DNA from: an uncultured bacterium
GTDB taxonomy: Bacteria > Auribacterota > JACPWU01
Direction: 5' to 3'
Length of the DNA stretch: 32,000 nucleotides
Assembly: GCA_964640155.1 (NCBI GenBank)
Contig: CAZXEQ010000003.1
Span: 164,189 to 196,188, forward strand
This document shows, piece by piece, positions 3,272 through 20,744 of this stretch. A program made the translations under genes and the position numbers. The notes beneath the pieces are model-generated. The model saw only the letters and a list, made by a program, of their open reading frames with translations, had not been told where the DNA came from and made no database searches. The number at the start of each line of letters is the position of its first letter. Position 1 is the first letter of the stretch.

Positions 3272-3283
3272 TAAATTTTATTT

Positions 3284-7342: not shown

Positions 7343-8446
7343 TCAAGAACTTGAGGTTTTAAAAGGACTTGTCATTTTTTTTAGAATGAAACGAACTGAT
7401 CGTACGATATACTTTGGTGTAATAGACTTTAGGAGCAATCGTATTTTGTCTTTATGTCCCTCCATAGTTGAAAAACGAAAAGTAATATCAAAAATTCTAG
7501 AAAGGGCATGTTTTTTCTTAAAGAGTCGCTCACATGTTTTATAGACTAACTTTTTAACGTTAGGATCTTTTTGTATAAATTTGATTGCTTCGTTTGGGAT
7601 AGGGATTTTGAAGAGGTTTTCTGACAGGCAAAGAGCTAATAAAACCATTCTTTTTTGAGTTTTGTTTTCAGCTCTTTTCAATATCCATGACCAATTCATT
7701 TCAGGGTATTTCTCAATCATTTCTGTAATATCAGATATCCAATTAAGACGGTTCCAAGCATGTTGAGCTCCGTGTGCGCAGAGGACTAAAAATAAATGCT
7801 CTGGAGAAAAGGTGTGTAAAAAATGATTTCCTAAAACTATTGATTGAGCTCTTTCTTCTAAAGGTTCGTTTATTGTATGTGTTTCCCAGTGAAGATCTAT
7901 ATAGACCCCATTTTTTAAAAAAGTTGGATCACAATGATATCGAAAAATATAATCCCATTGGTCGTCTGTGAATCCCATGCTTATGTGGTAGCCTTGAGCC
8001 TGTAAAAGATTTTTAGCTTTAGGGGCATCGTTCTTGTGGATAATAATATCTAAGTCATTAAATTGTCGCAGATGGACCTGTCCATAAAGCATTAGAGCTA
8101 GAATAGGGCCTTTATAAGAAATAACAAAAATATTTTGCTTTGCAAATAAATCCAAAATTTTTATTAATTCCGCGGTCATTTGCAGTGTACGTCGTGAAGA
8201 GTTCTCAAAGTATTCACGAAGTTTGGCCAAAACGAGATCTGGAACATTCTCGCGAAAGAAAGAGTTTAAATGTGTGTAAACAAGGGGTGTGAGTTTATGA
8301 TAAAAGACAATTTTAACAAAGTAGTCCCAATCTATATTTCCCTTTAGTAGATCTTTGATGTGTTCTGTTTTATCGGGACTGAGGGGAGATCGCGCACAGG
8401 CAAACAGAAGTTTTTGTTCAGGACTAAAGAAATTGTGTTGTATCAT
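7343..8446 (-). CDS. Nucleotidyltransferase family protein (NTP_transf_5/PF14907-like), stand-alone paralog
   Basis: It aligns along its whole length with the N-terminal part of 5551..7227 (FSPEQKLLFACAR, YKGPILALMLY...FNDLDIII, HGAQHAWNRLNWISD). The ATG at 8446 (MIQHNFF) matches the paralog N-terminus. The track start at 8458 is a TTG. Confidence 0.8.
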   Translation of the reverse strand: MIQHNFFSPEQKLLFACARSPLSPDKTEHIKDLLKGNIDWDYFVKIVFYHKLTPLVYTHLNSFFRENVPDLVLAKLREYFENSSRRTLQMTAELIKILDLFAKQNIFVISYKGPILALMLYGQVHLRQFNDLDIIIHKNDAPKAKNLLQAQGYHISMGFTDDQWDYIFRYHCDPTFLKNGVYIDLHWETHTINEPLEERAQSIVLGNHFLHTFSPEHLFLVLCAHGAQHAWNRLNWISDITEMIEKYPEMNWSWILKRAENKTQKRMVLLALCLSENLFKIPIPNEAIKFIQKDPNVKKLVYKTCERLFKKKHALSRIFDITFRFSTMEGHKDKIRLLLKSITPKYIVRSVRFILKKMTSPFKTSSS

Positions 8447-8452
8447 AAAAAA

Positions 8453-10378: not shown

Positions 10379-11008
10379 TCAATTGCTAAAAGTATAATGA
10401 AAGAGCGATATGTCTTTTTGATATAGATCTGCAATTCTGTTTCGTAGCTCATCGTCATAATAATTGAAATAGGGGAGGTGTTCTGACTTGTTGATAATAT
10501 TGAGTGTTTCGGTAGGGATGCCTATTTTTTTACAGGCAAGGTCGTAAGATTCTTGGAGATTTTCCTGGCGACAAATATAATCAATCATAAGTGCATCCGA
10601 AGTATCAGTGATAAATTGGTATTGTGGAGCAAATAAGATTCTCTTTTGATGGACTGAATCTTTTGCAATTTTTTTTAGAGTGAGTAAAGTATTCTTTTTT
10701 AAAATGTCGGTGTTTCTATACATAAAAAAGACATAAGAGATGAATCTGTCCCATGGATTACGTACACAAGCAAATTTAAAGTAAGAATTCCAAATATTTT
10801 CTCCCACGGCTTTTTTTATTTCATTTGCTGAAATATGACCATGGTTAATGCTGGCAATTTCTTTATAAGGTGCTTTTTTTTTAACGAAGAGTCCTACCTG
10901 TTCTATATCATCTTTTGCTAGGTGCTTTCTTAAAGCAAAACGAATGGCATGAGTACCTGTTTTAGGAATAGCAATAAAAATAAATTTGTACTTGTGTGAG
11001 ATGATCAT
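10379..11008 (-). CDS. Sulfotransferase (Sulfotransfer_2/carbohydrate-sulfotransferase-like family)
   Basis: It has a 5'-PSB-type loop, IPKTGTHAIRF, and a VRNPWDRFISY motif, both characteristic of PAPS-dependent sulfotransferases of the PF03567 type. Its start has an ATGA overlap with the upstream hydroxylase gene. Confidence 0.7.
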   Translation of the reverse strand: MIISHKYKFIFIAIPKTGTHAIRFALRKHLAKDDIEQVGLFVKKKAPYKEIASINHGHISANEIKKAVGENIWNSYFKFACVRNPWDRFISYVFFMYRNTDILKKNTLLTLKKIAKDSVHQKRILFAPQYQFITDTSDALMIDYICRQENLQESYDLACKKIGIPTETLNIINKSEHLPYFNYYDDELRNRIADLYQKDISLFHYTFSN

Positions 11009-11583
11009 TGATTGGAAGGTATCTCTAAATATTCAAAGATAAGATGGATTCTGTCACAATTTCCATCATTCTTCACAGCATGCAGTGTTGCGTTATTAAC
11101 TTCATAGGCATATCCCTCTTTTAGATTATATTTTTTAGAGGATTGAAAGAACCAGGCATCAGGGTTAGTTTGAATAGGGATATGTATTTTATGAGGCCTG
11201 TTCTGTAAAATATTTCCATCAATATGTGGTGGGATTTTTGCGCCGGGAGGTAATTTCGCGAGCATAACCCTAGGATAAAAACCATTTGTATAACCATAAT
11301 GTTGAGTCACCTCATTCATTACGGGTAATAGTTTGTCTTTCCATTTATCCCATACAGGTAGATCAAAATAGGTGATAGGCACCTGTTTTTTATTAGAAAA
11401 TTTAAAAATGATATGCTGAGTTTGTTTTAAAACCCCATCTTTATTGTAATTCGCTTTTTCTGAATCCGTGTCGTTCCAATCGTTTTTCGGGATGGTTAGG
11501 ATATGATCTTTAATAGAGGAAATATTGATTTTACAGATTTCGAGTATTTCTTTTGTTTTTTTTGTGTTTATTTCTAGTTTCAT
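11005..11583 (-). CDS. Aspartyl/asparaginyl beta-hydroxylase-like Fe(II)/2-oxoglutarate oxygenase
   Basis: It has the pattern IPPHIDGN...RPHKIHIPIQT...NNATLHAVKNDGNCDRIHLIFEY, which is typical of the Asp_Arg_Hydrox cupin family (HxD...H facial triad). Confidence 0.7.
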   Translation of the reverse strand: MKLEINTKKTKEILEICKINISSIKDHILTIPKNDWNDTDSEKANYNKDGVLKQTQHIIFKFSNKKQVPITYFDLPVWDKWKDKLLPVMNEVTQHYGYTNGFYPRVMLAKLPPGAKIPPHIDGNILQNRPHKIHIPIQTNPDAWFFQSSKKYNLKEGYAYEVNNATLHAVKNDGNCDRIHLIFEYLEIPSNQ

Positions 11584-11680: not shown

Positions 11681-11836
11681 ATGAGCTTAAATGAATCTCA
11701 TAAAAATGATCCCGGGCTTATAGTAAAGAAAGAACTTTGGCAATCTCCAAAGCTTCTTTATCTTAATTTGGATGGAACTGAGTCAGGTCCTACTTATCAC
11801 ATGGGCTACGAAGATGCAATGTATGTCTCTCACTAA
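11681..11836 (+). CDS. Candidate lasso peptide precursor A1 (51 aa, not in the ORF track): MSLNESHKNDPGLIVKKELWQSPKLLYLNLDGTESGPTYHMGYEDAMYVSH
   Basis: This is a hand translation. The ATG at 11681 is the first ATG after an in-frame TAA (11663), with GAAAGG 9 nt upstream. The leader carries an aromatic-xx-P-x-L motif (WQSPKL) and a Thr near the cleavage site, as in lasso leaders. The proposed core is GPTYHMGYEDAMYVSH (Gly1, Glu9 ring acceptor). The leader block is homologous to the second small ORF at 17635..17790. Confidence 0.75.
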   Translation: MSLNESHKNDPGLIVKKELWQSPKLLYLNLDGTESGPTYHMGYEDAMYVSH

Positions 11837-11993: not shown

Positions 11994-12974
11994 TTAGATA
12001 AATTCAATTTCCTTTAGCAAGGTGGCAAGATGTTCTTGCGAGAAGTGTTGAATGCCTCTAGGAATATTTGCTTCATAGATAGGGACTCGTTTTACGATGG
12101 ATATAATCATTTTAAGCTGATGCCTTACAAGCTCTCTGGCTTGCCAGGGAATTCTGGGATAATGGTTAAGATGAATAACAGCCTCACTGGCTTTTAGCCG
12201 TCTTACAGTCAAATTTTTAAATTTGATAGATAACCGAGGAATGACAATAGTTTTGAGAGTAGGGTATTCGTTTAAACTGCTAGAAACACGTACGATAAAT
12301 CGTTTATCTGCAGATATTCCGATGAGAGTTTCCGGAAAAAGTTTTGCAACGTTTTCAGCATTGGGGCGTAATCGAATTTCTGATGTTCCTGGAAAGCAAC
12401 TTACCGTGTTTTTGTAAAATTTAAGACGAAGTGTATCATCCGTAATTAGCCTAGCTCCATTTGAACATAGAAGGGCGGCTAAAGTAGATTTTCCCATTCC
12501 TGAATTTCCTACAAAAGCAAGAGCTGTATTTTTAATTTCTACTGCACTTGCATGCAATACAGTATGTCCTTGTAGGGTAAGAATGAAAGTAATAACATTT
12601 CCTGAGATGAGCAGGGGAATAATGTCAGGGTCCGCATGGGGGGTAAGGTGAACGTGTATATGCCGACATTCGAAATCCATTCTGAATTCACAAAAATCAT
12701 GATAACGCAAAATATAACCCGTAGCGGTTTGTGTATATATATAACCTTTTCCATTTTTATAAGAAAATTTTGCAAGAATCTGGCCTTCCTGTAGTGTGCT
12801 TGAAAAGTTACAGTTCTCACCCCAATAGATATTTAGATCTTCAAGCGAATTATCATTATAAATAGGTGTTCCAAGAGGAATTTCAGATCGAATGGATAAA
12901 CCATAGAGCTTATAGGTGGGATAAGATTTTAGTTTTTTATTGGCTTTTAAAGGATCTGCTTGGATTTGAGGCAT
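11994..12974 (-). CDS. HPr kinase/phosphorylase C-terminal-domain-like kinase K1 (lasso precursor kinase family)
   Basis: It has the P-loop FVGNSGMGKSTLAALL followed by LITDDT, as in HPrK/P and paeninodin-type lasso kinases. The ATG at 12974 is preceded by GAGAGGAAA. From there the N-terminus (...YKLYGLSIRSEIPL) aligns with paralogs K2 and K3. The longer ORF extending to 13037 is possible. Confidence 0.8.
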   Translation of the reverse strand: MPQIQADPLKANKKLKSYPTYKLYGLSIRSEIPLGTPIYNDNSLEDLNIYWGENCNFSSTLQEGQILAKFSYKNGKGYIYTQTATGYILRYHDFCEFRMDFECRHIHVHLTPHADPDIIPLLISGNVITFILTLQGHTVLHASAVEIKNTALAFVGNSGMGKSTLAALLCSNGARLITDDTLRLKFYKNTVSCFPGTSEIRLRPNAENVAKLFPETLIGISADKRFIVRVSSSLNEYPTLKTIVIPRLSIKFKNLTVRRLKASEAVIHLNHYPRIPWQARELVRHQLKMIISIVKRVPIYEANIPRGIQHFSQEHLATLLKEIEFI

Positions 12975-13229
12975 TAATTTCCTCTCTTGAAGATTAAGTG
13001 GTGTGTAGAATTTATCTGTCTTTTTTAAAGAAGTCAATACACAATGGGTTTGTCAAATAAGATTAAAGTTATTATACAAAAGAACGCTTAAGATGAAGCG
13101 AGGCGGCATTTAGTTTATGCTTCTTACCGAGAGATTGCATATATACAGAAAACTTATTTCTTGTTGAATACAAGTAGATTCATATTTAAAATTGTGGCTT
13201 AGTAAAATAGGGGGTTGTGGGTGAAATAC

Positions 13230-14150
13230 ATGAACTATAAAGCTTTTGGATTAATCCTATCGTCTTCTTTGTCTTTACCTTTTATTGAAGTATCTTCAGA
13301 AACTGTACCCGACTGTCTTATTTCAATAGGGGAAGTTCCTTCTCCTATTGACATCCCGTCATTAAAGTCTCTCGGTTTGTGTGTATATGTCAATTCAGAA
13401 AATGTAGTTGTTGATGTAGAAGGTGTTGCTCGTTTTCATTGCCAATTGAATAAGATTATTGTACAGACTTTGGGTGCGTGTGAGGCAGGCGTGATTGCTT
13501 TTCTAGTATATTCAGCCTTACCCTATTGGCTATTGTTGAGAGGACAGATGGTGCTTAGAGGTTGTGCGATTACTTGGGACGGAGTTCACAGCCAATTATG
13601 GTTATCTCATTCAGGGGTAGGGAGCTCGACTTTTGCAGCTTATGCGGTACAACGAGGAGCAAAACTTTTAAGTGATCATCTTTGTGTGATAGGTTTTAAC
13701 GAGAAAAAAATTAGTACAGTACAAAGTGGGATTTCCCAAATAAAATTATGGCAAGATGCCTTAAATCAGTTGCAGATTAAGAGTGCATCTTTAGCTCCTA
13801 TTCGGTCTGGACTGATGCAGTTTTTATGGGATGTAACAGAAAATTTTTATCATCAATCCTTGCCCATTTCTCAAGTTATAAGCTTGAGTGTTTCCAATGA
13901 TGTGAAGGATAATGGATTGAAAAAGTTTTTAGGTTTAGAGAAAATAAAATATTTGAGCGCTTACAATTATTGTCATACATTTGGAGATGTTTTGTTGAAG
14001 AAGACTTTTCAGGCCCCTCTCTTGGTAGCCTTAGCTAATCAAGTAGCAGTTTATTCGTTTACTCGCTTGAGTGGACAGAAAATAGGTGATGGAGTGAATA
14101 ACACGATGGATGAGATTTTTCCTTTCTTTAAGGAGTCTGTCCTTGCTTAA
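13230..14150 (+). CDS. HPr-kinase-like paralog K2 with a degenerate P-loop (putative pseudokinase)
   Basis: The N-terminus MNYKAFGLILSS aligns with K3 (MNAYRAFGLNILS). The P-loop position reads LSHSGVGSSTF (GKS changed to GSS). The following ADD/TDD position reads SDH. Alternative starts are GTG 13221 (GGGGG 6 nt upstream) and TTG 13215. Confidence 0.7.
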   Translation: MNYKAFGLILSSSLSLPFIEVSSETVPDCLISIGEVPSPIDIPSLKSLGLCVYVNSENVVVDVEGVARFHCQLNKIIVQTLGACEAGVIAFLVYSALPYWLLLRGQMVLRGCAITWDGVHSQLWLSHSGVGSSTFAAYAVQRGAKLLSDHLCVIGFNEKKISTVQSGISQIKLWQDALNQLQIKSASLAPIRSGLMQFLWDVTENFYHQSLPISQVISLSVSNDVKDNGLKKFLGLEKIKYLSAYNYCHTFGDVLLKKTFQAPLLVALANQVAVYSFTRLSGQKIGDGVNNTMDEIFPFFKESVLA

Positions 14151-15924
14151 AGAACACCCTTTTGTTCTATACCTTCAATCACTGATTCGTTTTTCTCCTG
14201 CACGGTTTATTCTTGGATGTCTGTTGAATATTACCAATACTTTTTTATCAGGGTTAGGCATGCTGATGCTTATTCCTCTATTACATTATTCAGGATGGCT
14301 ATCTCAGACAACTTTTCATGAAAATCAGTTTATGCAGGTCTTGACTTGGTTGCCGCATTTTCAGGGACAATGGCCTCTTTTTATAACTTTATTGTTGTTT
14401 GTGGTCTTAATGGGAATAACTGCTTTGGTGCAATATAATACGAGTTTTATGCAGAATAGATTGATGCAAGAATATTTATTTGTTCTACGTGAGAAATTTA
14501 ATAGAAGCATTGCACATAGTCGATGGGATTTTTTGTTAAAGCAGAAACTTAAGCATGTCGAACATATGCTAACGGTGGGGTTACAACAAGTTAGTACATT
14601 GACTTATTTCTCCTTAAATTTAATCAGTGATGCCATTGTTGTATCCATCTATTTTTTATTTTCATGGTGGGTTGACTTTCGATTGACTCTTGTTGCAACG
14701 GGATGTGCTTTCAGTCTATTGTTTCTTCTTAGGAAGCACAAAGCGATATTAACAGGACAACAAACTTTTTTTCTGAATCGTAAAATGCAAGAATCTTTCG
14801 GTCTTTTTTTAGATGGGGTAAAACTAGCCAAAAGTTATAATCAGGTTTCAAATTATCTTAAAAATTATACAGTGTCGGACTTGGAGTTTAAGCAGTCTCA
14901 ATTAGATTTTTTCCGTAATCAACAGACGATTCAGCTGCTCTTTAAGTTAATCAGTGCAGGACTTTTTGCTTTTATTTTTTATGTTGCAGTTCAGGTTTTT
15001 CATATCTCAATGATTTCTATGCTTGCCTTGCTAATGATTTACGCTAGATTGTTGCCTCGTATTTCGGGTCTACAGCAGAATTATCTTCGTACTATGAATG
15101 TGGCCCCAGTTTTTCATGAATTATCTTCAATGAAAAGGGGATTTGATGAAGCGCAGGAGAAACAAGAGTCTATAGACCAGCTTTTGACATTTGAACAATC
15201 AATCACTTTTAATCATATCAGTTTTTATTATGATGATTTTGCTGCTTTAAAATCGGTGAATTGTCAGTTTTTTAAAAATACAACGACAGCCATTGTAGGC
15301 AGATCAGGTGCAGGTAAATCAACTTTAGCAGATTTGCTGTTGGGTTTATTGATTCCTAGCAATGGAGTTATTATGTTGGATGGGAAGACTCTTGCAGAGT
15401 CTCAATTAAAAGAATGGCGTAAATACATTAGTTACGTTCCTCAAGAAACCTATTTTTTTAATGATACTTTGCGGGCAAATTTGCTTTGGGCTGTTCCGGA
15501 TGCCAGTAATCAAGAGTTATGGAAGTCCTTAGAGCAGGCTGCTGCGGCTGAGTTTGTAGCGAAATTACCTCAGGGTTTGGATACTTTTATTGGAGATCGA
15601 GGCATTCATTTGTCGGGTGGAGAAAGGCAGCGTATTGCTATTGCTCGGGCGTTACTGAGAGAGCCTAAAGTTTTGCTGCTAGACGAAGCAACCAGTTCTC
15701 TGGATACTTATAATGAAGAATTGATTTTTAAAACTTTACAATCTTTGAAGGGGACGATGACAATAATTATTATTGCTCATCGTTTAAGTACGATTCGAAT
15801 TGCGGATCATGTTTTAGTTTTAGATCAAGGGCATCTAATTGAACATGGGACTTCGAGTAAACTTTTTGAAAATCAACAATCATATTTTAATCTTTTATTT
15901 GCAAGTCAGATTATTAATTCTTAA
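14110..15924 (+). CDS. ABC transporter, fused permease/ATP-binding protein (McjD-like lasso peptide exporter)
   Basis: The N-terminal half has about 6 hydrophobic segments. Walker A is GRSGAGKST, the signature is LSGGERQR, Walker B is LLLDEATS and the H-loop is IIAHRLST. An alternative TTG start at 14143 lies behind AAGGAG. Confidence 0.9.
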   Translation: MRFFLSLRSLSLLKEHPFVLYLQSLIRFSPARFILGCLLNITNTFLSGLGMLMLIPLLHYSGWLSQTTFHENQFMQVLTWLPHFQGQWPLFITLLLFVVLMGITALVQYNTSFMQNRLMQEYLFVLREKFNRSIAHSRWDFLLKQKLKHVEHMLTVGLQQVSTLTYFSLNLISDAIVVSIYFLFSWWVDFRLTLVATGCAFSLLFLLRKHKAILTGQQTFFLNRKMQESFGLFLDGVKLAKSYNQVSNYLKNYTVSDLEFKQSQLDFFRNQQTIQLLFKLISAGLFAFIFYVAVQVFHISMISMLALLMIYARLLPRISGLQQNYLRTMNVAPVFHELSSMKRGFDEAQEKQESIDQLLTFEQSITFNHISFYYDDFAALKSVNCQFFKNTTTAIVGRSGAGKSTLADLLLGLLIPSNGVIMLDGKTLAESQLKEWRKYISYVPQETYFFNDTLRANLLWAVPDASNQELWKSLEQAAAAEFVAKLPQGLDTFIGDRGIHLSGGERQRIAIARALLREPKVLLLDEATSSLDTYNEELIFKTLQSLKGTMTIIIIAHRLSTIRIADHVLVLDQGHLIEHGTSSKLFENQQSYFNLLFASQIINS

Positions 15925-15936
15925 TAAGGATCGATC

Positions 15937-16821
15937 ATGAAACAAGATCTTCCTCTTATTTGGTTGGCCTCCTATCCTAAGTCTGGGAATACATGGTTTC
16001 GCGTTTTTTTAGCTAATTTGCTTCAAGAGGAAAAAGATAAAGTAATACCTGTTTCTATTAATCAATTAATGGTGGGGCAGATTGCAAGCAGTCGAGCGGC
16101 TTTTGATCAAGTTTATGGAATTGATTCAAGCCTTTTAACCTTAGAAGAAATTGATGCGAAACGTCCAAAGCTGTATAAAAAATGGGTAAATTTAGATAAT
16201 GATAAAACTCGCTTTCATAAAGTTCATGATGCGTATACTTTCTTGCCAAATGGCGACCCCCTCTTAGGAAATCCAAGTCAACAAAAAGCTTTGTATTTTA
16301 TTCGCAATCCTTTAGATGTAGCAGTATCATTTGCTTATCATAGTGGTTATACGGATATGAATAAAATGATTGAGAAGATGAATGAGGTCTCCTATGCTTT
16401 TTGTCACCGTAAAATCTGTTTTTATTCTCAACTACGTCAACAATTATTAAGTTGGCATGAGCATGTTTTGAGTTGGATTGATCAGTGTAAAATGCCTGTT
16501 CATGTGATGAGATATGAAGATATGGTGAATGATCCTATCTCAATTTTTTATAAAGCTATACAATTTATAGGTTTATCTCAGAGTGTTTTGGATGTCGAAA
16601 AAGCATTAGAATTAAGCTCTTTTTCTAATTTACAGAGTCAAGAAGCTCAAGAAGGTTTTAAGGAAAAGTCTCCGAAAACAAAAGCATTTTTTCGTAAAGG
16701 TAAGATTGGTTCATACCGTGAGTCATTAACACAAGAGCAGATTGAATCTTTAATTCAGGCTCATGCCAAGGTTATGCACCGTTTTGGCTATCTTGACAAC
16801 ACTGGAGCACCTGTGTTTTAA
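15937..16821 (+). CDS. Sulfotransferase (Sulfotransfer_1, cytosolic PAPS-dependent type)
   Basis: It has the 5'-PSB motif SYPKSGNTWFRVFL and the 3'-PB motif FFRKGKIGSYRE. AAGGA lies 8 nt upstream of the ATG. Confidence 0.85.
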   Translation: MKQDLPLIWLASYPKSGNTWFRVFLANLLQEEKDKVIPVSINQLMVGQIASSRAAFDQVYGIDSSLLTLEEIDAKRPKLYKKWVNLDNDKTRFHKVHDAYTFLPNGDPLLGNPSQQKALYFIRNPLDVAVSFAYHSGYTDMNKMIEKMNEVSYAFCHRKICFYSQLRQQLLSWHEHVLSWIDQCKMPVHVMRYEDMVNDPISIFYKAIQFIGLSQSVLDVEKALELSSFSNLQSQEAQEGFKEKSPKTKAFFRKGKIGSYRESLTQEQIESLIQAHAKVMHRFGYLDNTGAPVF

Positions 16822-16849: not shown

Positions 16850-17152
16850 ATGTCTGATTATTTATTTCAGTCCGATGACATTCTGGTTAGAGAAAAAAAT
16901 TTGTTTTCTGCAAATATAGATGATGATGTTGTAATGCTCGACGAATCTTCTGGGAATTATTTTGGTCTAAATCCTGTTGCTGGTAAAATTTGGCAGCTTC
17001 TAGAAAAGCCAATTCGTTTAAGAGATCTTATTAATAGCTTAACCACCCACTATGAAGTTGACAGGCTGCAATGCGAACAAGAAACGGCCAGTTTTCTAAA
17101 TTCATTGAATGAACGTAAACTATTACACATCACTCATGCTGAAAAAGCTTAA
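16850..17152 (+). CDS. Lasso peptide biosynthesis B1 protein (PqqD-family RiPP recognition element)
   Basis: It is a ~100 aa PqqD-like protein (VVMLDESSGNYFGLNPVAGKIWQLLEKPIRLRDLINSL). It sits directly upstream of, and overlaps, the B2 protease gene. Confidence 0.85.
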   Translation: MSDYLFQSDDILVREKNLFSANIDDDVVMLDESSGNYFGLNPVAGKIWQLLEKPIRLRDLINSLTTHYEVDRLQCEQETASFLNSLNERKLLHITHAEKA

Positions 17153-17585
17153 GAGTTATTGGCGTTTACCTTTGGAATTACGCAGGGCATCCAGAGAAGC
17201 TTTCTTATATTTAACTTTCTCAAAAATTTTAATCAAGAGTATTCCCATCCGTTTTTCTTTGAAGTATTTGGGTGTTAAGAATATAGATCTTTCCAGAAGT
17301 GATGTGAGCTGCGATCCGAGTGTTCTTTTCCTGATCAGACAGAGCATTTATTTGGTGAGTAAAAATTTACCTTGGAGGAGTAAATGCTTAGATCAGGCTA
17401 TGACTGCACAATGGATGCTTTCCAGAAGAAATTTACCTACGACACTATACTTGGGAATGAGAAAATCCGATAACGCTAAAAAATCTTATGATGCGCATGC
17501 TTGGGTATGTTGCGGTAATATGCCTGTTATAGGAGTGCAGCCTCAGGTGGGATATGTTGTAGTAGGGAGATATTCTTTCCTGTAA
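17136..17585 (+). CDS. Lasso peptide biosynthesis B2 protein (transglutaminase-like Cys leader peptidase)
   Basis: It has the pattern WRSKCLDQAMTAQWML...YDAHAWVCCG (catalytic Cys and His of the Transglut_core3/McjB family). The probable start is MLKKLKSYW at 17136, which overlaps B1 by 17 nt. The track start is 17109. Confidence 0.85.
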   Translation: MLKKLKSYWRLPLELRRASREAFLYLTFSKILIKSIPIRFSLKYLGVKNIDLSRSDVSCDPSVLFLIRQSIYLVSKNLPWRSKCLDQAMTAQWMLSRRNLPTTLYLGMRKSDNAKKSYDAHAWVCCGNMPVIGVQPQVGYVVVGRYSFL

Positions 17586-17634
17586 TTCAGAGAAAGTTTT
17601 TAAAAAATAAAAGATGAAAATGTTTAATATGTCT

Positions 17635-17790
17635 TCATGAAAAAACACCGCAAGCAGCTTCAGGGACTACCGCGCATCCTCCTTCAGTTTGAACAGATAA
17701 ATCAATTTGAATAAGAGTTGGTGTTTGCCAGAGTTCTTTTTTTTGTTTAGTTTTGGAAACGGTTTTATGAGTGGATTGTTGAGTTCGCAT
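17635..17790 (-). CDS. Candidate lasso peptide precursor A2 (51 aa, not in the ORF track): MRTQQSTHKTVSKTKQKKELWQTPTLIQIDLSVQTEGGCAVVPEAACGVFS
   Basis: This is a hand translation of the minus strand. GAGGAA lies 6 nt upstream of the ATG at 17790, and the TGA stop is at 17637-17635. The leader motif is KKELWQTPTL with Thr at -2. The core is GGCAVVPEAACGVFS (Gly1, Glu8, two Cys, C-terminal Ser). It lies immediately downstream of cyclase C2 on the same strand. Confidence 0.8.
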   Translation of the reverse strand: MRTQQSTHKTVSKTKQKKELWQTPTLIQIDLSVQTEGGCAVVPEAACGVFS

Positions 17791-17837
17791 TTAACATTCC
17801 TCATGAGATGCAATTATTAAAAATACACAGACTATTT

Positions 17838-17855
17838 AAAAAAGAGCTCTTTTTT
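17838..17855. repeat. Perfect 18-nt palindrome AAAAAAGAGCTCTTTTTT in the C2-A2 spacer
   Basis: Read directly from the sequence. It is self-complementary across its full length and centred on GAGCTC. Confidence 0.8.
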
Positions 17856-17861
17856 GAGGGT

Positions 17862-17881
17862 TCATACCCTTAAAGGTATGA
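17862..17881 (-). other. Stem-loop (7-bp stem TCATACC/GGTATGA, 6-nt loop) between cyclase C2 and precursor A2
   Basis: Read directly: tcatacc-cttaaa-ggtatga. Its function (processing site, attenuator or none) is not established. Confidence 0.5.
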
Positions 17882-17938
17882 CAAATTTTGTCTTTTACCA
17901 GTTCAATCATATAGCGTTACATCTCATAAATCAATCAG

Positions 17939-19846
17939 TTATGTAAGATTTTTGCTATTTTTCATCATAGATAAAAGTAGTTTGATTTGTATGGAGCGAT
18001 TGATAAAAGTTCTATAAACGAAAGACTTTTCACCTTTTAGACAAGTGTCATTTTTGTGTTCATTATGTAATTTTTGCAATTTTTTTATATTTACAATTTT
18101 TTGAGTAAGAGGGTGTTGGGGTTCAGAAAAAAGTCGATTTGCTTGTGTGCTGCTGCTAATGGACGGGAAAGGTTTAATATTTCCCATTTCTTTTGTAGGT
18201 TGTGCTCGGATAGATTCTGGAATTTTCTCTTTCATTGCTTCCCTGTGTAGATAGCGAGTTATTCCTTGATGCCATTTATATTCTGCTGGAACAGACAGAA
18301 ATAATTCGATTAGACGGATATCTAAAAGGGGCCAAGCGTATTCGATGTTGTAAGCGGCTGCCAGAATGGAACATTCTTCTAATCGGGCAATTGCAATAGG
18401 TCCAAAAGTTTTTTCTAAACATTGTTCATTTACATGCGTATAACCTTCTCGTTGAGCAAGAGCAAAATATTTTTTTCTGAGCTGTAAATTTTGTTTCCAA
18501 TGTAAGAGGAGAGGAGCATGTACAAGACGTTCTTTTAATGCTTTTAAATAAATCTTGTGATTACAGCGCTTATGGGCAAGTTGGTAATAACAGAGGAGAG
18601 CTAATTGTTTTAATAAGTGTAGTGATCGCTTGATCGGTTTTCCATGGAGAGCTCGCCATGCTTTCTTAAACTGCCATTTAGATAAAAGTTCAATAATAAC
18701 AATTTGAGTTCTTTGAGTAACAAACTCATCTCCACCAAACCCAGAAAGTAGTATTTGAACACCTTCTTTTTCTGCCTGTTTATAAAAAGGAATATGAAAA
18801 GAGCCCATTCCTAATTCTTCAGGGTATCCAAGAAGAGAGACGGTTTCAGGCATATTCTCATAATGTTGTCCAAAGAGAACATCGTTATAGAAACGGTGGT
18901 GAGGGCCTTGTAAATTGAAATAAGTAAGCGCTTCATCAATGCAAGGTCCGTCTAAATCCATTTTATCATGTGCAAATGTATGTAATGTTTGACGAAGTTC
19001 AGGATTACATTCAAGAGCTGTGCCAATGATAGAAGTGGAGTCTAATCCACCACTGAATTCGGCTCCAATTGGTTTATTTTCAGGAATACGGCACCGAACA
19101 GCTTCTTTAAGTGCTTTCTGATAAACTTGAATATACTCATGCGTGTCTTTTAGATGAAGTATTTTATAAGGGTCAAATGCATGATAACGCGTAATTTGAA
19201 TTTTATGATTACGATAGATGAGAAAGTGTCCAGGTGCTAATTTTTGTATGTTGTTATAAAAAGTTTCTGTAAGGCTTAATGGAATATGAAGTAAATATTG
19301 TACGAGTCGAGATTCGTCTATCTGAGCTTTAAAAAAAGGTAATTTATGAAAAAAGGAAATATTTGAAGCAAAAATAAGACTCTTTTCTTGCTGGGCATAA
19401 AAAAGAGGTTTTACACCGATAGGATCTCGCGCACAGTATAAAGTTTTATCTAGTGTGTCGTAGATAACGAAAGCAAAATCACCGACCAAGTGTTTTGCAC
19501 ACTCAGAGCCAAAGCGTAAATAACTTTCAAGAATGATATCCACATCGCTTAGTGATGAGAGTTTATAGGGGGCGATACCAAGTTTTAGAGCTATCTCAGG
19601 CCGGTTGTCTAAGCGAGACCAAGCAAGAACAACATAACGGTTTTTTCTTAAGAAAAAAGTTGTTGGATTTTTTGTGTCTTGAGCAGATTGATTGCCTTGA
19701 GTCCATTGGGCTATGGCATATAGGTTATCTTGATGAGATAGGGTTCTTTGTGGTTGATTAGGGAATTGTAGGGCATGCTCAACGGCATTTGGATCTATAT
19801 CTAATTGGGATTCAGAAACAATTCCAGCAAAGAGAGATGTTTTCAT
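17939..19846 (-). CDS. Lasso peptide cyclase C2 (asparagine synthetase B-like)
   Basis: It is a paralog of C1 with the same motifs (GAEFSGGLDSTSI, LLSGFGGDEF, AAAYNIEYAWPLLDIRLIELFLS). The start is MKTSLFAGIV. Confidence 0.9.
   Translation of the reverse strand: MKTSLFAGIVSESQLDIDPNAVEHALQFPNQPQRTLSHQDNLYAIAQWTQGNQSAQDTKNPTTFFLRKNRYVVLAWSRLDNRPEIALKLGIAPYKLSSLSDVDIILESYLRFGSECAKHLVGDFAFVIYDTLDKTLYCARDPIGVKPLFYAQQEKSLIFASNISFFHKLPFFKAQIDESRLVQYLLHIPLSLTETFYNNIQKLAPGHFLIYRNHKIQITRYHAFDPYKILHLKDTHEYIQVYQKALKEAVRCRIPENKPIGAEFSGGLDSTSIIGTALECNPELRQTLHTFAHDKMDLDGPCIDEALTYFNLQGPHHRFYNDVLFGQHYENMPETVSLLGYPEELGMGSFHIPFYKQAEKEGVQILLSGFGGDEFVTQRTQIVIIELLSKWQFKKAWRALHGKPIKRSLHLLKQLALLCYYQLAHKRCNHKIYLKALKERLVHAPLLLHWKQNLQLRKKYFALAQREGYTHVNEQCLEKTFGPIAIARLEECSILAAAYNIEYAWPLLDIRLIELFLSVPAEYKWHQGITRYLHREAMKEKIPESIRAQPTKEMGNIKPFPSISSSTQANRLFSEPQHPLTQKIVNIKKLQKLHNEHKNDTCLKGEKSFVYRTFINRSIQIKLLLSMMKNSKNLT
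19454..19513. repeat. 60-nt perfect inverted repeat, copy 2 (inside cyclase C2)
   Basis: It is the exact reverse complement of 8810..8869. Flanking codons of the two paralogs differ at many synonymous sites. Confidence 0.9.
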
Positions 19847-19886: not shown

Positions 19887-20744
19887 TTATCTATCAGATG
19901 AGGTAAGAGCAATACGATCAGTCTTCTTTATGATGACTTGCCCAGAAAGTTTCATGAGCTGCTTTACGTAAGCATGAGTTAATCCCATCTTTTTCAGAAA
20001 ATGATAACGATAACTATGGCGTATTAATAACTGAATTTTTTCTATGCTTGTGATTTGAGAAAGATTGTTTGCTTGTGTATTAATCTCAATGATTTCAGCC
20101 AAAGGGAGTGAACTTTTGTAATATTGTGAATGTACTGAAAGAGCAAATTTATTATCTTGGGGACGCACCTGTCTTAAATTTTGTGTGTTGATTCCCAAAA
20201 GCTTTGCACTGTCTTCCCATAACTTTATTTGAGGATAACTGGGTACAACACGTGCGGTTCCTTTTTTATCAAAGGCTATAACACATACATCATCTGCCAA
20301 AACATGTGCTCCTTGCTGATAATACCATCCCGCCATAGTTGATTTTCCTGAGCCACGATTGCCTACATAAACTGTACATGTTTTAAGGTCTGAAGAAACG
20401 GTATTACCATGAAGAACAATATGCCCACGCTGTTGCATGAGTGCCCCCATGCATGAGCCTAACAAAAATAGACGTAAAGTATCTTGATCACAAGAGGGGT
20501 AGGATTTATATGTGATTTTTTGACCATTTTCTATTAAAAAATGAGCAATGTTTTTAATGTTAAGTAGCGCTTGGTTTTCATTTGCTTGAAAATGGATAGA
20601 AGCTGAGTCACCATTGATAGAAATAGGCACTTGTCCAGACGCAATTTTAACATCGACAGAAGTAGGATCAAAAGAGCTTGGTAAAAATTCAATGATTTCT
20701 AAGTCACTAAGGATGTTTAAACCAAATGCGCGATAAGCATTCAC
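19887..20744 (-). CDS. HPr kinase-like kinase K3 (lasso precursor kinase family)
   Basis: It has the P-loop VYVGNRGSGKSTMAG followed by VLADDVCVI. It has a GTG start at 20744 and lies directly upstream of C2 (40-nt gap). Confidence 0.8.
   Translation of the reverse strand: MNAYRAFGLNILSDLEIIEFLPSSFDPTSVDVKIASGQVPISINGDSASIHFQANENQALLNIKNIAHFLIENGQKITYKSYPSCDQDTLRLFLLGSCMGALMQQRGHIVLHGNTVSSDLKTCTVYVGNRGSGKSTMAGWYYQQGAHVLADDVCVIAFDKKGTARVVPSYPQIKLWEDSAKLLGINTQNLRQVRPQDNKFALSVHSQYYKSSLPLAEIIEINTQANNLSQITSIEKIQLLIRHSYRYHFLKKMGLTHAYVKQLMKLSGQVIIKKTDRIALTSSDR

What the first reader, a model, noticed from the sequence alone, without database searches (positions are those of the whole stretch)
17635..17790. 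Unannotated 51-aa ORF: lasso precursor A2 with canonical Thr(-2)/Gly1/Glu8, two Cys and C-terminal Ser
The minus-strand ORF lies 148 nt downstream of cyclase C2 and has a good SD (GAGGAA). Its sequence is MRTQQSTHKTVSKTKQKKELWQTPTLIQIDLSVQTE|GGCAVVPEAACGVFS. Thr at -2, Gly1 and Glu8 fit the canonical lasso rules. The 15-mer (8-residue ring plus 7-residue tail) matches the sungsanpin/chaxapeptin size class. Cys3 (ring) and Cys11 (tail) could form a ring-to-tail disulfide, as in class III (BI-32169-like) topology. The C-terminal Ser is the residue phosphorylated by HPr-kinase-like enzymes in paeninodin-type systems. An alternative register (core GCAVVPE, 7-residue ring) cannot be excluded.
Basis: partly seen in the sequence, partly recalled or inferred. 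Interest (0 to 1): 0.85.

Follow-up and report, generated by a model that had tools for sequence, protein, structure and literature searches.

The report
Second lasso-peptide precursor gene, kinase-type cluster
The 51-codon reading frame is a real gene for the precursor of a small knotted "lasso" peptide. It belongs to a known family whose last serine gets phosphorylated, so it is a sound but fairly ordinary addition, made a little unusual by its two cysteines and by having no close relative.

Summary
**Observation: confirmed.** ORF 17635..17790 (-) encodes the stated 51-aa peptide. GAGGAA lies 6 nt upstream of the ATG, and the start is 148 nt after cyclase C2.

**It is far more than a chance ORF:**
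- A profile was built only from 90 small ORFs next to related cyclases in other genomes. It ranks this ORF first of 369 small ORFs in the window (25 bits, E = 3e-7).
- The paralogue A1 (11681..11836) ranks second; everything else scores 5.5 bits or less, and the overlapping alternative frame did not appear among the listed hits.
- Codon-position GC (0.52/0.44/0.19) is the in-frame signature of this genome. The alternative ORF shows the off-frame pattern.

**Family traits:**
- The leader motif is W/Y/F-xx-P-x-L.
- Thr aligns with A2's Thr(-2) in 71 of 92 sequences.
- The acceptor Glu/Asp is at position 8 or 9 in 68 of 91.
- The C-terminal residue is Ser in 89 of 92.
- HPr-kinase-like genes occur in 104 of 160 loci.

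This is the known paeninodin/pseudomycoidin-type class of phosphorylated lasso peptides. K3, upstream of C2 on the same strand, keeps the kinase catalytic residues.

**Open points:**
- The G1–E8 register is favoured but not proven.
- The Cys3–Cys11 disulfide is only possible. If formed it would be ring-to-loop, as in engineered stlassin, rather than BI-32169-like.
- No A2-like core exists among 1.84 billion representative proteins.

**Verdict:** new member of a known kind; moderate interest.

The parts
17635..17790 (-). A2: 51-codon lasso precursor gene (stop codon 17635-17637)
   Evidence: ORF and translation. Leave-out family profile: 25 bits, E = 3e-7, top of 369 window ORFs. In-frame codon-position GC.
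17683..17790 (-). Leader peptide, residues 1-36 (MRTQQSTHKTVSKTKQKKELWQTPTLIQIDLSVQTE) in the favoured register
   Evidence: Aligns with the family leader consensus ...kpWsaPeLirLd.akeTegG. It is 41% identical to the A1 leader.
17713..17730 (-). WQTPTL, the variant of the YxxPxL motif recognised by B1/RRE (W-16, P-13, L-11)
   Evidence: In the family the aromatic position is W 45, Y 20, F 11 of 91, and Leu occupies the last position in 52 of 91. The role of the motif is taken from PMC10368454, which cites Chekan 2019 and Sumida 2019.
17638..17682 (-). Core peptide GGCAVVPEAACGVFS: Gly1, Cys3, Glu8, Cys11, Phe14, Ser15
   Evidence: Thr occupies the -2 column in 71 of 92 sequences. Gly follows it in 46 of 91. 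The acceptor is at position 8 or 9 in 68 of 91. The C-terminal residue is Ser in 89 of 92.
17797..17802 (-). Shine-Dalgarno-like GAGGAA, 6 nt before the ATG
   Evidence: Read directly from the sequence.
17791..17938 (-). Structured C2-A2 spacer: three small hairpins enclosed by an outer stem (17803-17813 / 17917-17927) that abuts the SD
   Evidence: RNA fold of -32.8 kcal/mol, z = -2.77, and none of 200 shuffles folds as well. Inverted repeats I3 and I6. No Rfam match. Its function is inferred only.
17939..19846 (-). C2: lasso cyclase (Asn-synthase-like) directly upstream of A2
   Evidence: Pfam Asn_synthase and GATase_7. The best NCBIfam hit is the lasso peptide isopeptide bond-forming cyclase, at 286 bits, below its 525-bit exception cut-off. 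The SGGLDS motif is present.
19887..20744 (-). K3: HPr-kinase-like kinase, first gene of the K3-C2-A2 run on the minus strand
   Evidence: No Pfam hit on its own. The profile of K3 and its homologues hits HPrK/P structures 1jb1, 2qmh, 1ko7 and 3tqf (E = 4.5e-9) across LH...GxSGxGKST...ADD. K3 keeps His, the P-loop Lys and Asp-Asp.
16850..17152 (+). B1: PqqD-like leader-binding protein (RRE), the only one in the cluster
   Evidence: Pfam PqqD, E = 3.9e-17. NCBIfam lasso_PqqD_Bac at 73.9 bits against a cut-off of 80.
17109..17585 (+). B2: transglutaminase-like leader peptidase, convergent with A2
   Evidence: NCBIfam lasso_biosyn_B2 at 73.2 bits, above its 33-bit cut-off. Pfam Transglut_core3.
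14110..15924 (+). D: ABC exporter
   Evidence: Pfam ABC_tran, E = 5e-33. Homologues in 59 of 160 related loci.
15937..16821 (+). S1: PAPS-type sulfotransferase with an unknown substrate
   Evidence: Pfam Sulfotransfer_1, E = 1e-30. Homologues at about 50% identity in 76 of 160 related loci.
11994..13037 (-). K1: second intact HPr-kinase-like kinase
   Evidence: Pfam Hpr_kinase_C, E = 3e-7, below the gathering score. TIGR04352/TIGR04355 hits. Catalytic residues kept.
13215..14150 (+). K2: degenerate kinase paralogue (R, S and H at the His, P-loop Lys and second Asp positions)
   Evidence: Alignments.
11681..11836 (+). A1: paralogous 51-aa precursor (…KKELWQSPKLLYLNLDGTESGPTYHMGYEDAMYVSH)
   Evidence: Second-best window ORF in the leave-out test at 18.3 bits. 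BLASTP against A2 gives E = 3e-7.
8453..10363 (+). C1: second cyclase, 54% identical to C2
   Evidence: P0004, 636 aa, hence the start at 8453.
7343..8458 (-). N2: NTP_transf_5 nucleotidyltransferase-like protein (the PsmN-type gene class)
   Evidence: Pfam PF14907, E = 3e-59. Homologues in 55 of 160 loci. The function of PsmN is taken from PMC6993621.
5551..7227 (-). N1-MT: NTP_transf_5 fused to a SAM-methyltransferase domain
   Evidence: Pfam PF14907, E = 9e-58, plus Methyltransf_31/25/11 at residues 420-490.
10379..11583 (-). S2 (Sulfotransfer_2, 10379-11008) and OH (Asp/Arg-hydroxylase-like, 11005-11583), next to A1
   Evidence: Pfam. Homologues at 42-52% identity occur only in L081 and L130.

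Best explanation
ORF 17635..17790 (-) is a genuine precursor gene (A2) of a lasso peptide. It belongs to the kinase-associated, C-terminal-Ser family, the paeninodin / pseudomycoidin / SyanA type.

Proposed pathway (steps 1 and 2 are shown in part; the rest is inferred by homology):
1. A2 is expressed as the last gene of a K3-C2-A2 run on the minus strand. Transcription comes through, or starts within, a structured 148-nt spacer.
2. The 36-residue leader carries WQTPTL, the family's version of the YxxPxL motif. The single PqqD-like B1 binds this motif.
3. [quoted passage not shown] K3 is the obvious candidate and K1 is possible.
4. B2 cuts after Thr35-Glu36.
5. C2 activates the side chain of Glu8 and joins it to the amine of Gly1. 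This gives an 8-membered macrolactam with the 7-residue segment AACGVFS threaded through it.
6. Phe14 and the modified Ser15 act as the lower plug.
7. The NTP_transf_5 proteins may add hexose to the phosphate, as PsmN does.
8. The ABC transporter exports the product.

The core has a single hydroxyl group, on Ser15. Any O-directed tailoring (phosphate, sugar, perhaps sulfate) must therefore converge on that residue or on groups attached to it.

Outside the reducing cytoplasm, Cys3 and Cys11 may close a ring-to-loop disulfide.

My probabilities:
- Real lasso precursor of this cluster: about 0.9.
- Gly1-Glu8 register: about 0.7.
- Ser15 phosphorylation: about 0.65.
- Cys3-Cys11 disulfide: about 0.35.
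For: **Sequence:** the ORF, SD and spacing are exactly as described.

**Genomic context**
- C2, B1, B2, the ABC exporter, three HPrK-like genes, two NTP_transf_5 genes and two sulfotransferases are present.
- B2 is above the NCBIfam lasso-B2 cut-off. Lasso-specific models are the best hits for B1 and C2.

**Family evidence**
- An iterated profile over small ORFs from 160 related cyclase loci recovers about 100 peptides.
- A model without any window sequence still scores A2 at 25 bits (E = 3e-7) and A1 at 18.3 bits. The next window ORF scores 5.5 bits, and the alternative frame did not appear among the listed hits.
- 89 of 92 sequences end in Ser. 71 of 92 have Thr in A2's Thr(-2) column. 46 of 91 have Gly next. 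The acceptor is at position 9 in 51 and at position 8 in 17.
- The aromatic-to-acceptor distance in A2 is 23 residues, the same as the family mode (derived from the spacings).
- The position no more than 700 nt downstream of the cyclase on the same strand is the commonest arrangement, 40 of 96.

**Coding signal:** codon-position GC is 0.52/0.44/0.19, against 0.39/0.20/0.48 for the alternative frame.

**Kinases**
- K homologues occur in 104 of 160 loci, and in 64 of the 81 loci that carry a family precursor.
- The K3-family profile matches HPrK/P structures at E = 4.5e-9. His, the P-loop Lys and Asp-Asp are conserved in K3 and K1.

**Literature**
- PadeK, ThcoK and SyanK phosphorylate the conserved C-terminal Ser of the linear precursor (PMC9266682).
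- PsmK phosphorylates the terminal Ser of pseudomycoidin, and PsmN then adds hexose. Bulky C-terminal groups were proposed to lock the lasso (PMC6993621).
- The YxxPxL motif is read by B1 (PMC10368454).
- Engineered Cys pairs at 2/11 and 3/12 in stlassin spontaneously form ring-to-loop disulfides (PMC9266682).
Against: - No product has been observed, and there are no expression data.
- A2 has no orthologue anywhere. The word-index search and the exhaustive HMMER search of 1.84 billion representatives returned only A2 itself. The conservation of Cys3, Cys11, Glu8 and Ser15 therefore cannot be tested for this particular core.
- The three SRA-derived contigs from this organism (two carry A2, the third only the left flank) matched the window exactly wherever compared, so they give no substitution pattern.
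- The family profile was seeded from A1 and A2, so member recruitment is not fully independent. The members do, however, share a terminal Ser and a cyclase-adjacent position, which were not selection criteria.
- The spacing from the aromatic residue to Thr is 14 in A2 and 13 in 65 of 91 family members.
- The tail has only one bulky residue, Phe14, so stable threading is uncertain.
- Pfam and NCBIfam scores for the kinases, B1 and C2 are below the curated cut-offs.
- Promoter-like and terminator-like matches are no more frequent than in shuffled sequence.
Confidence: 0.8

Rival explanations
1. The gene and family are the same, but the cleavage register differs. B2 cuts after Gly37, so the core is GCAVVPEAACGVFS (14 aa). 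It would have a 7-membered Gly1-Glu7 ring, Thr at -3, and the WxxPxL motif at the canonical -17/-14/-12 positions.
For: - With this cut, W21, P24 and L26 fall at -17, -14 and -12. These are the positions reported for Tyr, Pro and Leu in characterised leaders (PMC10368454).
- The paralogue A1 and five other family members have their first acceptor at position 10 in the Thr(-2) register. This implies that cleavage one residue later, before a Gly, does occur in this family.
- A1 and A2 must share the single B1/B2 pair. If A1 is cut before its Gly, its Trp lies at -16, the same as in A2's register 1, so the ruler argument does not decide between the registers.
Against: - Thr(-2) is the most widely conserved recognition element of lasso leaders (PMC10368454). 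It aligns with A2's Thr35 in 71 of 92 family sequences.
- In the Thr(-2) frame only 2 of 91 members would have a position-7 acceptor, against 68 of 91 at position 8 or 9.
- The motif-to-cut distance is not fixed in this family: 13 or 14 residues to the Thr column.
Confidence: 0.2
2. A2 is processed to a macrolactam, but the product is a class II lasso or even an unthreaded branched-cyclic peptide. The two cysteines would stay free, or serve another purpose such as metal binding or another modification. There would be no ring-to-tail disulfide.
For: - The cluster encodes no thiol-disulfide oxidoreductase.
- Only about 9% of family members have two or more Cys, and at non-equivalent positions. 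A Cys pair is therefore not a family feature.
- Pseudomycoidin made without its kinase and N gene is not a threaded lasso (section heading in PMC6993621).
- A2's tail has a single bulky residue.
Against: [quoted passage not shown]
- A2's 3/11 spacing is almost the same as in those stlassin variants.
- Two Cys in a 15-residue exported peptide would be prone to oxidise.
Confidence: 0.5
3. A2 is a decaying or silent duplicate. It would be a real homologue of lasso precursors that is no longer expressed or no longer accepted by B1, B2 and C2.
For: - It is a sequence orphan.
- The spacing from the leader motif to Thr is one residue longer than the family mode.
- The spacer upstream can fold so that its outer stem reaches the SD.
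- No convincing promoter was found.
Against: - The ORF is intact, with a good SD and a strongly in-frame codon-position bias.
- Its dedicated cyclase C2 and kinase K3 are full length, with their catalytic motifs intact.
- All hallmark residues are present: W/P/L in the leader, Thr-2, Gly1, Glu8 and the terminal Ser.
Confidence: 0.07
4. The ORF is a chance open frame in an AT-rich intergenic region. The region would be only a regulatory or terminator spacer between the convergent C2 and B2 genes.
For: - Small ORFs are abundant, with 369 of 20-130 aa in the window.
- The neighbouring 148-nt spacer is significantly structured.
Against: - The leave-out profile gives E = 3e-7, with a gap of about 20 bits to the best unrelated ORF.
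- The paralogue match gives E = 3e-7.
- Codon-position GC is in-frame.
- The location is the canonical one for the family.
- No Rfam family matches.
Confidence: 0.02

Closest known systems
Paeninodin (PadeA/PadeK, Paenibacillus dendritiformis) and the polyphosphorylated ThcoA/SyanA lasso peptides
   Same: - The cluster has split B1/B2, a cyclase, an ABC exporter and an HPr-kinase-like K gene.
- The precursor ends in Ser, which is the phosphorylation site on the linear precursor (PMC9266682).
- The leader carries an aromatic-xx-P-x-L motif and Thr(-2).
- K3 and K1 conserve the His / Lys / Asp-Asp residues reported as essential.
   Different: - A2's core is much shorter: 15 aa with an 8-membered Gly1-Glu8 ring. 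Paeninodin has a longer core that starts with Ala and uses an Asp acceptor (PMC6993621, Fig. 1 legend).
- A2 contains two Cys.
- The cluster has three K paralogues (one degenerate), two cyclases and two precursors.
- There is no detectable sequence similarity in the core.
Pseudomycoidin (psm cluster, Bacillus pseudomycoides)
   Same: - The tailoring logic is kinase plus NTP-transferase-like N gene: phosphate on the terminal Ser, then hexose on the phosphate.
- The bulky C-terminal group was proposed to act as a lock (PMC6993621). That idea would suit A2's poorly plugged tail.
   Different: - Here there are two N genes, one fused to a methyltransferase domain, and two sulfotransferases.
- The host is a Gram-negative-type, possibly Chlamydiae-related, bacterium.
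- Nothing has been shown experimentally.
Sungsanpin / chaxapeptin
   Same: The size class is the same. Both are 15-residue lasso peptides (PMC7314030). From my own knowledge, they have a Gly1-Asp8 ring and a 7-residue tail.
   Different: They come from actinobacteria, are class II, and have no Cys, no terminal Ser and no kinase. Their sequences are unrelated, and they carry several bulky tail residues where A2 has one.
Class III lasso peptides (BI-32169, 9401-LP1) and the engineered stlassin V2C/A11C and V3C/P12C variants
   Same: A single possible disulfide links a ring Cys to a Cys after the ring. The stlassin variants place the pair at 2/11 and 3/12, almost the same as A2's 3/11, and the bond forms spontaneously (PMC9266682).
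   Different: - In class III peptides the ring Cys is bonded to a Cys on the tail (PMC9266682). From my own knowledge, BI-32169 links Cys6 to the C-terminal Cys19.
- In A2, Cys11 would probably sit in the loop above the ring. PMC9266682 describes that fold as outside the four classes and known only from engineering.
- For A2 the bond itself is untested.
BsfA/BsfK (Bradymonas sediminis) and other Ile/Val(-2) phosphorylated lasso precursors
   Same: This is the same broad family of kinase-associated precursors, with YxxPxL leaders and a B1-assisted kinase (PMC10368454). Ile/Val/Leu(-2) variants also appear among the relatives collected here (15 of 92).
   Different: A2 has the canonical Thr(-2). 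BsfK targets Ser3 rather than the C-terminal Ser.

Membership tests
Lasso peptide precursor (RiPP class) | A small ORF clustered with a lasso cyclase (C), a PqqD-like RRE (B1) and a transglutaminase-like peptidase (B2) | tested here: met
   - C2 lies 148 nt upstream on the same strand. B2 ends 49 nt away and B1 is adjacent to B2.
- B2 scores 73.2 bits against the 33-bit cut-off of NF033537.
- B1 (73.9 bits against 80) and C2 (286 bits against 525) have lasso models as their best hits but fall below the cut-offs.
Lasso peptide precursor (RiPP class) | A leader with the B1-recognition motif YxxPxL | tested here: met
   The motif is WQTPTL at residues 21-26. In 91 relatives the first position is W 45, Y 20, F 11, Pro is fixed by the search, and Leu is found in 52. 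Trp replaces Tyr, which is the majority state in this subfamily.
Lasso peptide precursor (RiPP class) | Thr at the penultimate leader position, followed by a small residue (Gly, Ala, Ser or Cys) as core residue 1 | tested here: met
   A2 has Thr35-Glu36|Gly37. The same column holds Thr in 71 of 92 relatives and Gly follows in 46 of 91. The actual cleavage site was not determined.
Lasso peptide precursor (RiPP class) | An Asp or Glu acceptor at core position 7, 8 or 9 | tested here: met
   The acceptor is Glu8 in register 1 and Glu7 in register 2. Relatives have it at position 9 in 51, position 8 in 17 and position 7 in 2.
Lasso peptide precursor (RiPP class) | A threaded macrolactam product (-18 Da, resistant to heat and carboxypeptidase) | not testable with these tools
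   This needs expression and MS/NMR.
Kinase-associated (paeninodin-type) phosphorylated lasso peptides | An HPr-kinase-like gene in the cluster with intact His / P-loop Lys / Asp-Asp | tested here: met
   - K3 and K1 keep all four residues, and K2 does not.
- The K3-family profile hits HPrK/P structures at E = 4.5e-9.
- K1 hits Pfam Hpr_kinase_C at E = 3e-7, below the gathering score.
Kinase-associated (paeninodin-type) phosphorylated lasso peptides | The precursor ends in Ser | tested here: met
   A2 ends in ...GVFS. 89 of the 92 family sequences end in Ser. The literature describes this site as extremely conserved (PMC9266682).
Kinase-associated (paeninodin-type) phosphorylated lasso peptides | Phosphate (+79.966 Da, possibly several) on the terminal Ser of the precursor and the product | not testable with these tools
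   This needs an in vitro kinase assay or MS of the expressed product. With sulfotransferases present, phosphate must be told apart from sulfate (a difference of 9.5 mDa).
Class III lasso peptides (one ring-to-tail disulfide) | One Cys in the macrolactam ring and one Cys after it | tested here: met
   Cys3 is in the ring and Cys11 follows it, as read from the sequence.
Class III lasso peptides (one ring-to-tail disulfide) | The disulfide is actually formed and links the ring to the threaded tail | not testable with these tools
   - No orthologues exist to test co-conservation of the two Cys.
- By geometry, Cys11 probably lies in the loop. The bond would then be of the engineered-stlassin type rather than the BI-32169 type (PMC9266682).
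- For these reasons I do not file A2 as class III.

The most novel reading that the evidence does not exclude
A2 would mature into a lasso fold so far known only from engineering. It would be an 8-membered ring tied to its own loop by a Cys3-Cys11 disulfide. The short, poorly plugged tail would be locked by a phospho-, glyco- or sulfo-modified C-terminal Ser that collects all the O-directed tailoring of the cluster. The producer would be an uncultured, possibly Chlamydiae-related bacterium whose cluster runs two cyclases and two precursors off a single B1/B2 pair.
Probability: 0.15. Interest if true: 0.6.

Novelty: new member of a known kind. Interest (0 to 1): 0.38.

Why it matters
**For annotation.** The result shows that the cluster encodes two substrates, A1 and A2, each next to or near its own cyclase. 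It also gives a reusable definition of the precursor family: W/Y/F-xx-P-x-L, then Thr-x, then a core with its acceptor at position 8 or 9, ending in Ser. No Pfam or NCBIfam model currently detects these peptides.

**For natural-product work.**
- A2 is a compact 15-residue substrate with a single hydroxyl group. Whatever the kinase, the nucleotidyltransferase-like enzymes and the still-uncharacterised but widely conserved sulfotransferase do, they must do it at Ser15. This makes A2 a clean test substrate for assigning those enzymes.
- It would also be a natural test of whether a ring-to-loop disulfide occurs in lasso peptides.

None of this overturns current understanding. It extends a known family.

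Tried and rejected
- **Direct homologue searches with A2.** The word-index search returned only A2 itself. The exhaustive HMMER search returned A2 plus four long proteins. The three I inspected are translated tandem repeats whose weak matches add up, so they are not relatives.
- **Curated models.** Pfam and NCBIfam have no match for A1 or A2, even at E = 1.
- **Substitution-pattern test.** The Logan contig that carries A2 and that I compared (L001) is 100% identical to the window, so no synonymous/non-synonymous signal could be obtained.
- **Promoter and terminator scans.** There were 11 promoter-like sites against 14.3 expected, and 3 terminator-like sites against 1.9 expected. I attach no weight to the individual sites at 17840-17813 or 17934-17906.
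- **Rfam** on 17300-18200 found nothing.
- **Fold of the 3' region after A2** is not significant (z = -1.08).
- **Using the YxxPxL position as a ruler for the cleavage site.** The family shows 13 or 14 residues to the Thr column, and A1 and A2 differ, so this does not settle the register.
- **First guess of a Legionellales host,** based on the cyclase relatives. I dropped it after pyruvate carboxylase (79%) and the linked PIF1-WYL helicase (65%) pointed to a MAG labelled 'Chlamydiae bacterium'. The organism itself could not be named.
- **The primary paeninodin paper** (PMC4919450) is not held, so I relied on reviews and on the pseudomycoidin and Bsf papers.
- **Structure prediction** was not attempted. 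A 51-aa linear precursor model would say nothing about lasso topology.
Full report
**1. The observation**

The minus-strand ORF at 17635..17790 exists and translates to MRTQQSTHKTVSKTKQKKELWQTPTLIQIDLSVQTEGGCAVVPEAACGVFS.
- GAGGAA lies at 17797-17802, 6 nt before the ATG.
- The ATG is 148 nt downstream of the stop of the Asn-synthase-like gene at 17939..19846.
- The ORF's stop codon lies 49 nt from the end of the convergent gene at 17109..17585.
- The overlapping alternative-frame ORF (17667..17804, or 17813 from a TTG) also exists.

So the description is accurate. The word 'unannotated' could not be checked. The exact peptide is on record as a called gene product from an NCBI assembly (357-kb contig) and two SRA-derived assemblies, with no name and no Pfam family.

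**2. The surroundings**

Profile searches show a large lasso-peptide cluster between about 5.5 and 20.8 kb.

| Gene | Coordinates | Identity |
|---|---|---|
| N1-MT | 5551-7227 (-) | NTP_transf_5 fused to a methyltransferase |
| N2 | 7343-8458 (-) | NTP_transf_5 |
| C1 | 8453-10363 (+) | cyclase |
| S2 | 10379-11008 (-) | Sulfotransfer_2 |
| OH | 11005-11583 (-) | Asp/Arg-hydroxylase-like protein |
| A1 | 11681-11836 (+) | a second 51-aa ORF |
| K1 | 11994-13037 (-) | HPr-kinase-like |
| K2 | 13215-14150 (+) | HPr-kinase-like, degenerate |
| D | 14110-15924 (+) | ABC exporter |
| S1 | 15937-16821 (+) | Sulfotransfer_1 |
| B1 | 16850-17152 (+) | PqqD-like |
| B2 | 17109-17585 (+) | transglutaminase-like; above the NCBIfam lasso-B2 cut-off |
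| A2 | 17635-17790 (-) | the candidate |
| C2 | 17939-19846 (-) | cyclase |
| K3 | 19887-20744 (-) | HPr-kinase-like |

C2 is 54% identical to C1.

**3. Is the ORF more than chance?**

A 51-codon ORF alone is weak evidence, because the window has 369 ORFs of 20-130 aa. Four independent lines make it strong.

- *(a) Paralogue.* The A2 leader matches the A1 leader (KKELWQ[ST]P.L…L..TE.G; 41% identity, E = 3e-7).
- *(b) Family profile.*
  - I fetched 160 loci encoding relatives of C2 from genomes and metagenomes. I extracted all 28,503 small ORFs and iterated a profile.
  - About 100 small ORFs form one family.
  - A model rebuilt without any sequence from this organism scores A2 at 25.0 bits (E = 3e-7 within the window). 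A1 scores 18.3 bits, the next window ORF 5.5 bits, and the alternative frame did not appear among the listed hits.
- *(c) Position.* The commonest place for a family member is no more than 700 nt downstream of the cyclase on the same strand (40 of 96). This is A2's position.
- *(d) Coding composition.*
  - Codon-position GC in the A2 frame is 0.52/0.44/0.19, so GC3-GC1 = -0.33.
  - Real genes here give -0.20 +/- 0.11 in frame and about +0.1 off frame.
  - The alternative ORF gives +0.09.

**4. What the family is**

Statistics for the 90 non-window members plus A1 and A2:
- 89 of 92 end in Ser.
- 71 of 92 have Thr in the column of A2's Thr35. Ile, Val or Leu account for 15 more.
- The next-but-one residue is Gly in 46 of 91.
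- The first Asp/Glu at position 7 or later, counted from that residue, is at position 9 in 51 and at position 8 in 17.
- The leader motif is W (45), Y (20) or F (11), then xx-P-x-L.

Accessory genes in the same 160 loci:
- HPr-kinase-like genes occur in 104 loci, and in 64 of the 81 loci with a detected precursor.
- An S1-type sulfotransferase occurs in 76, at about 50% identity. That is better conserved than the cyclase, at about 35%.
- NTP_transf_5 genes occur in about 55.

This is the class described in the literature as phosphorylated lasso peptides.
- PadeK, ThcoK and SyanK phosphorylate, and can polyphosphorylate, the 'extremely conserved' C-terminal Ser of the linear precursor (PMC9266682).
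- PsmK does the same in pseudomycoidin. The NTP-transferase-like PsmN then adds one or two hexoses to the phosphate (PMC6993621).
- Sulfotransferase genes have been noticed in such clusters but not characterised (PMC8498205).
- Ile/Val(-2) variants and the YxxPxL motif are described in PMC10368454.

**5. The kinases**

K3 has no Pfam hit on its own. A profile of K3 with 17 homologues from the related loci plus K1 and K2 has HPr kinase/phosphorylase structures as its best PDB matches. These are 1jb1, 2qmh, 1ko7 and 3tqf, at E = 4.5e-9. The match spans LH…G.SG.GKST…ADD.
- K3 and K1 conserve the His, the P-loop Lys and the Asp-Asp. These correspond to the His-Lys-Asp-Asp motif reported as essential (PMC9266682) and to the PsmK D158/D159 metal site (PMC6993621).
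- K2 has Arg, Ser and His at three of these positions and is probably catalytically dead.

K3, C2 and A2 are consecutive on the minus strand, so K3 is the natural partner of A2. This pairing is an inference.

**6. Register of the core**

The Thr(-2) rule gives the core GGCAVVPEAACGVFS with a Gly1-Glu8 ring, which fits the family columns.
- The distance from the leader Trp to the acceptor is 23 residues, the same as the family mode. A2 has one extra leader residue and one residue fewer in the ring.
- Against this, a cut one residue later would put W, P and L at the textbook -17, -14 and -12 positions (PMC10368454).
- A1 and five other members only obtain a 9-membered ring if they are cut before their second residue, a Gly.
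- The motif-to-Thr spacing is itself variable (13 or 14), so this ruler does not decide.

I put register 1 at about 0.7. The two products differ by 57 Da and are trivially distinguished by MS.

**7. The cysteines**

No orthologue of A2 exists in 5.8 billion clustered proteins or in 1.84 billion representatives. The extra hits I inspected were translated tandem repeats. Co-conservation of Cys3 and Cys11 therefore cannot be tested.
- Cys-containing cores recur in the family but at other positions. Examples are GGGxGxSEHxCGCGIxS in Burkholderiales/Neisseria MAGs and NKPGTCGENCCGGCPTGAVS in a Coxiellaceae MAG.
- Class III is defined by a ring-to-tail disulfide (PMC9266682).
- With only seven residues after the ring and Phe14 as the only plausible plug, Cys11 would sit in the loop.
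- The closest precedent is then the engineered stlassin V2C/A11C and V3C/P12C variants. Their ring-to-loop disulfides formed spontaneously and were described as outside the four classes (PMC9266682).
- The bond is plausible, about 0.35, but unproven. I do not file A2 as class III.

**8. Mechanism proposed**

1. The precursor is translated.
2. B1 binds WQTPTL.
3. K3 phosphorylates Ser51 on the linear peptide.
4. B2 cuts after Glu36.
5. C2 forms the Gly1-Glu8 isopeptide around the tail.
6. The N enzymes, and possibly S1, elaborate the phospho-Ser.
7. The ABC transporter exports the product, and oxidation may close Cys3-Cys11.

The core has only one hydroxyl group, on Ser15. All O-directed tailoring must therefore act there or on what is already attached there. 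This suits the published idea that bulky C-terminal groups lock the thread (PMC6993621).

The gene context, the family membership and the conserved residues are shown. Every chemical step is inferred by homology.

**9. Expression signals**

- The 148-nt C2-A2 spacer folds better than all 200 shuffles (z = -2.77). It forms three small hairpins inside an outer stem (17803-17813 / 17917-17927) that reaches the SD.
- It matches no Rfam family.
- Consensus promoter and terminator matches are not enriched.
- Whether the structure tunes the ratio of A2 to C2 expression is speculation.

**10. Host**

- All flanking proteins tested are singletons at 90% identity.
- Pyruvate carboxylase is 79% identical, and the linked PIF1-WYL helicase 65% identical, to those of MAG GCA_016178055.1, labelled 'Chlamydiae bacterium'. 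The next named hits are at 59% or less.
- The cluster's enzymes are only about 35% identical to anything else. Their nearest relatives are scattered over Legionellales, Desulfobacterota, Victivallales and other MAGs.
- The cluster is slightly more AT-rich than its flanks.
- My literature searches turned up no paper describing a lasso cluster in Chlamydiae, although lasso clusters have been noted in other amoeba symbionts. This is context, not part of the finding.

**11. Verdict**

A2 is a genuine, previously uncharacterised precursor of the known kinase-associated lasso family.
- Novelty: a new member of a known kind.
- Points of extra interest: the orphan 15-residue core with a ring/loop Cys pair and a single modifiable hydroxyl, and the unusual cluster with two cyclases, two precursors, three kinases and one B1/B2 pair. 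Only 5 of 160 related loci have two cyclases.
- Interest: about 0.38.

Noticed in passing
window 11681-11836 (+): A1 is the paralogous 51-aa precursor. It ends in ...VSH, which makes it one of only 3 of 92 family sequences that do not end in Ser. In the Thr(-2) register its first acceptor is Glu10, so its core may start at the following Gly, or the C-terminal His may be trimmed.
   Followed up: partly
window 13215-14150 (+): K2 is an HPr-kinase-like paralogue. It has Arg, Ser and His where K1, K3 and 17 homologues have the catalytic His, the P-loop Lys and the second Asp. It is probably a pseudo-kinase, perhaps a scaffold or specificity factor. It is followed by the ABC exporter gene, whose listed ORF overlaps its 3' end.
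   Followed up: partly
window 8453-10363 (+) and 17939-19846 (-): The cluster has two cyclases (54% identical) and two precursors, but only one B1, one B2 and one exporter. Only 5 of 160 related loci carry two cyclase genes.
   Followed up: partly
window 5551-7227 (-): An NTP_transf_5 (PsmN-type) domain is fused to a C-terminal SAM-methyltransferase domain. I did not find such a fusion mentioned in the lasso literature I read.
   Followed up: no
window 17791-17938 (-): The C2-A2 spacer RNA folds better than all 200 shuffles (z = -2.77). An 11-nt outer stem (17803-17813 / 17917-17927) encloses three hairpins and abuts the A2 Shine-Dalgarno sequence. It has no Rfam match.
   Followed up: partly
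window 15937-16821 (+); loci L091, L015, L013 and 73 others: The Sulfotransfer_1 gene is the best conserved accessory gene of this cluster type, at about 50% identity in 76 of 160 loci against about 35% for the cyclase. No function has been assigned to it in lasso biosynthesis in the papers read.
   Followed up: partly
window 10379-11583 (-); L081 and L130: The Sulfotransfer_2 and Asp/Arg-hydroxylase-like pair next to A1 has homologues at 42-52% identity only in L081 and L130. The pair looks like a mobile tailoring sub-module. Weaker hits for one or other gene were seen in L029 and L074.
   Followed up: partly
window 68-4867; L163, L164, L165: The host is probably related to a MAG labelled 'Chlamydiae bacterium' (GCA_016178055.1): pyruvate carboxylase is 79% identical and the linked PIF1-WYL helicase 65%. 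The cluster is slightly more AT-rich (GC 0.31-0.37) than its flanks (0.39-0.41). The organism appears in three SRA runs.
   Followed up: partly
L026 9402-9551 (-); L042, L044, L104, L105, L109: There are Cys-rich relatives with a terminal Ser. One is a Coxiellaceae peptide with four Cys (…TQDTL|NKPGTCGENCCGGCPTGAVS). Another is a Burkholderiales/Neisseria group with Val/Ile at -2 and a conserved CGC (GGGxGxSEHxCGCGIxS).
   Followed up: no
L049, L054, L061, L116, L127, L160 and others (for example L054 11957-12109): A well-conserved subgroup, seen for example in Erythrobacter and unclassified Pseudomonadota MAGs, reads …GTA|TGPFPDPSEFP.ILQMS. In the Thr(-2) register its core would start with Thr. 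Either non-canonical first residues are common here or the cleavage rule differs.
   Followed up: no
window 21121-21693 (+): A NusG-like paralogue is transcribed divergently from K3. It heads a polysaccharide-type gene block (DAO oxidoreductase, epimerase/dehydratase and others). It probably belongs to that locus rather than to the lasso cluster.
   Followed up: no
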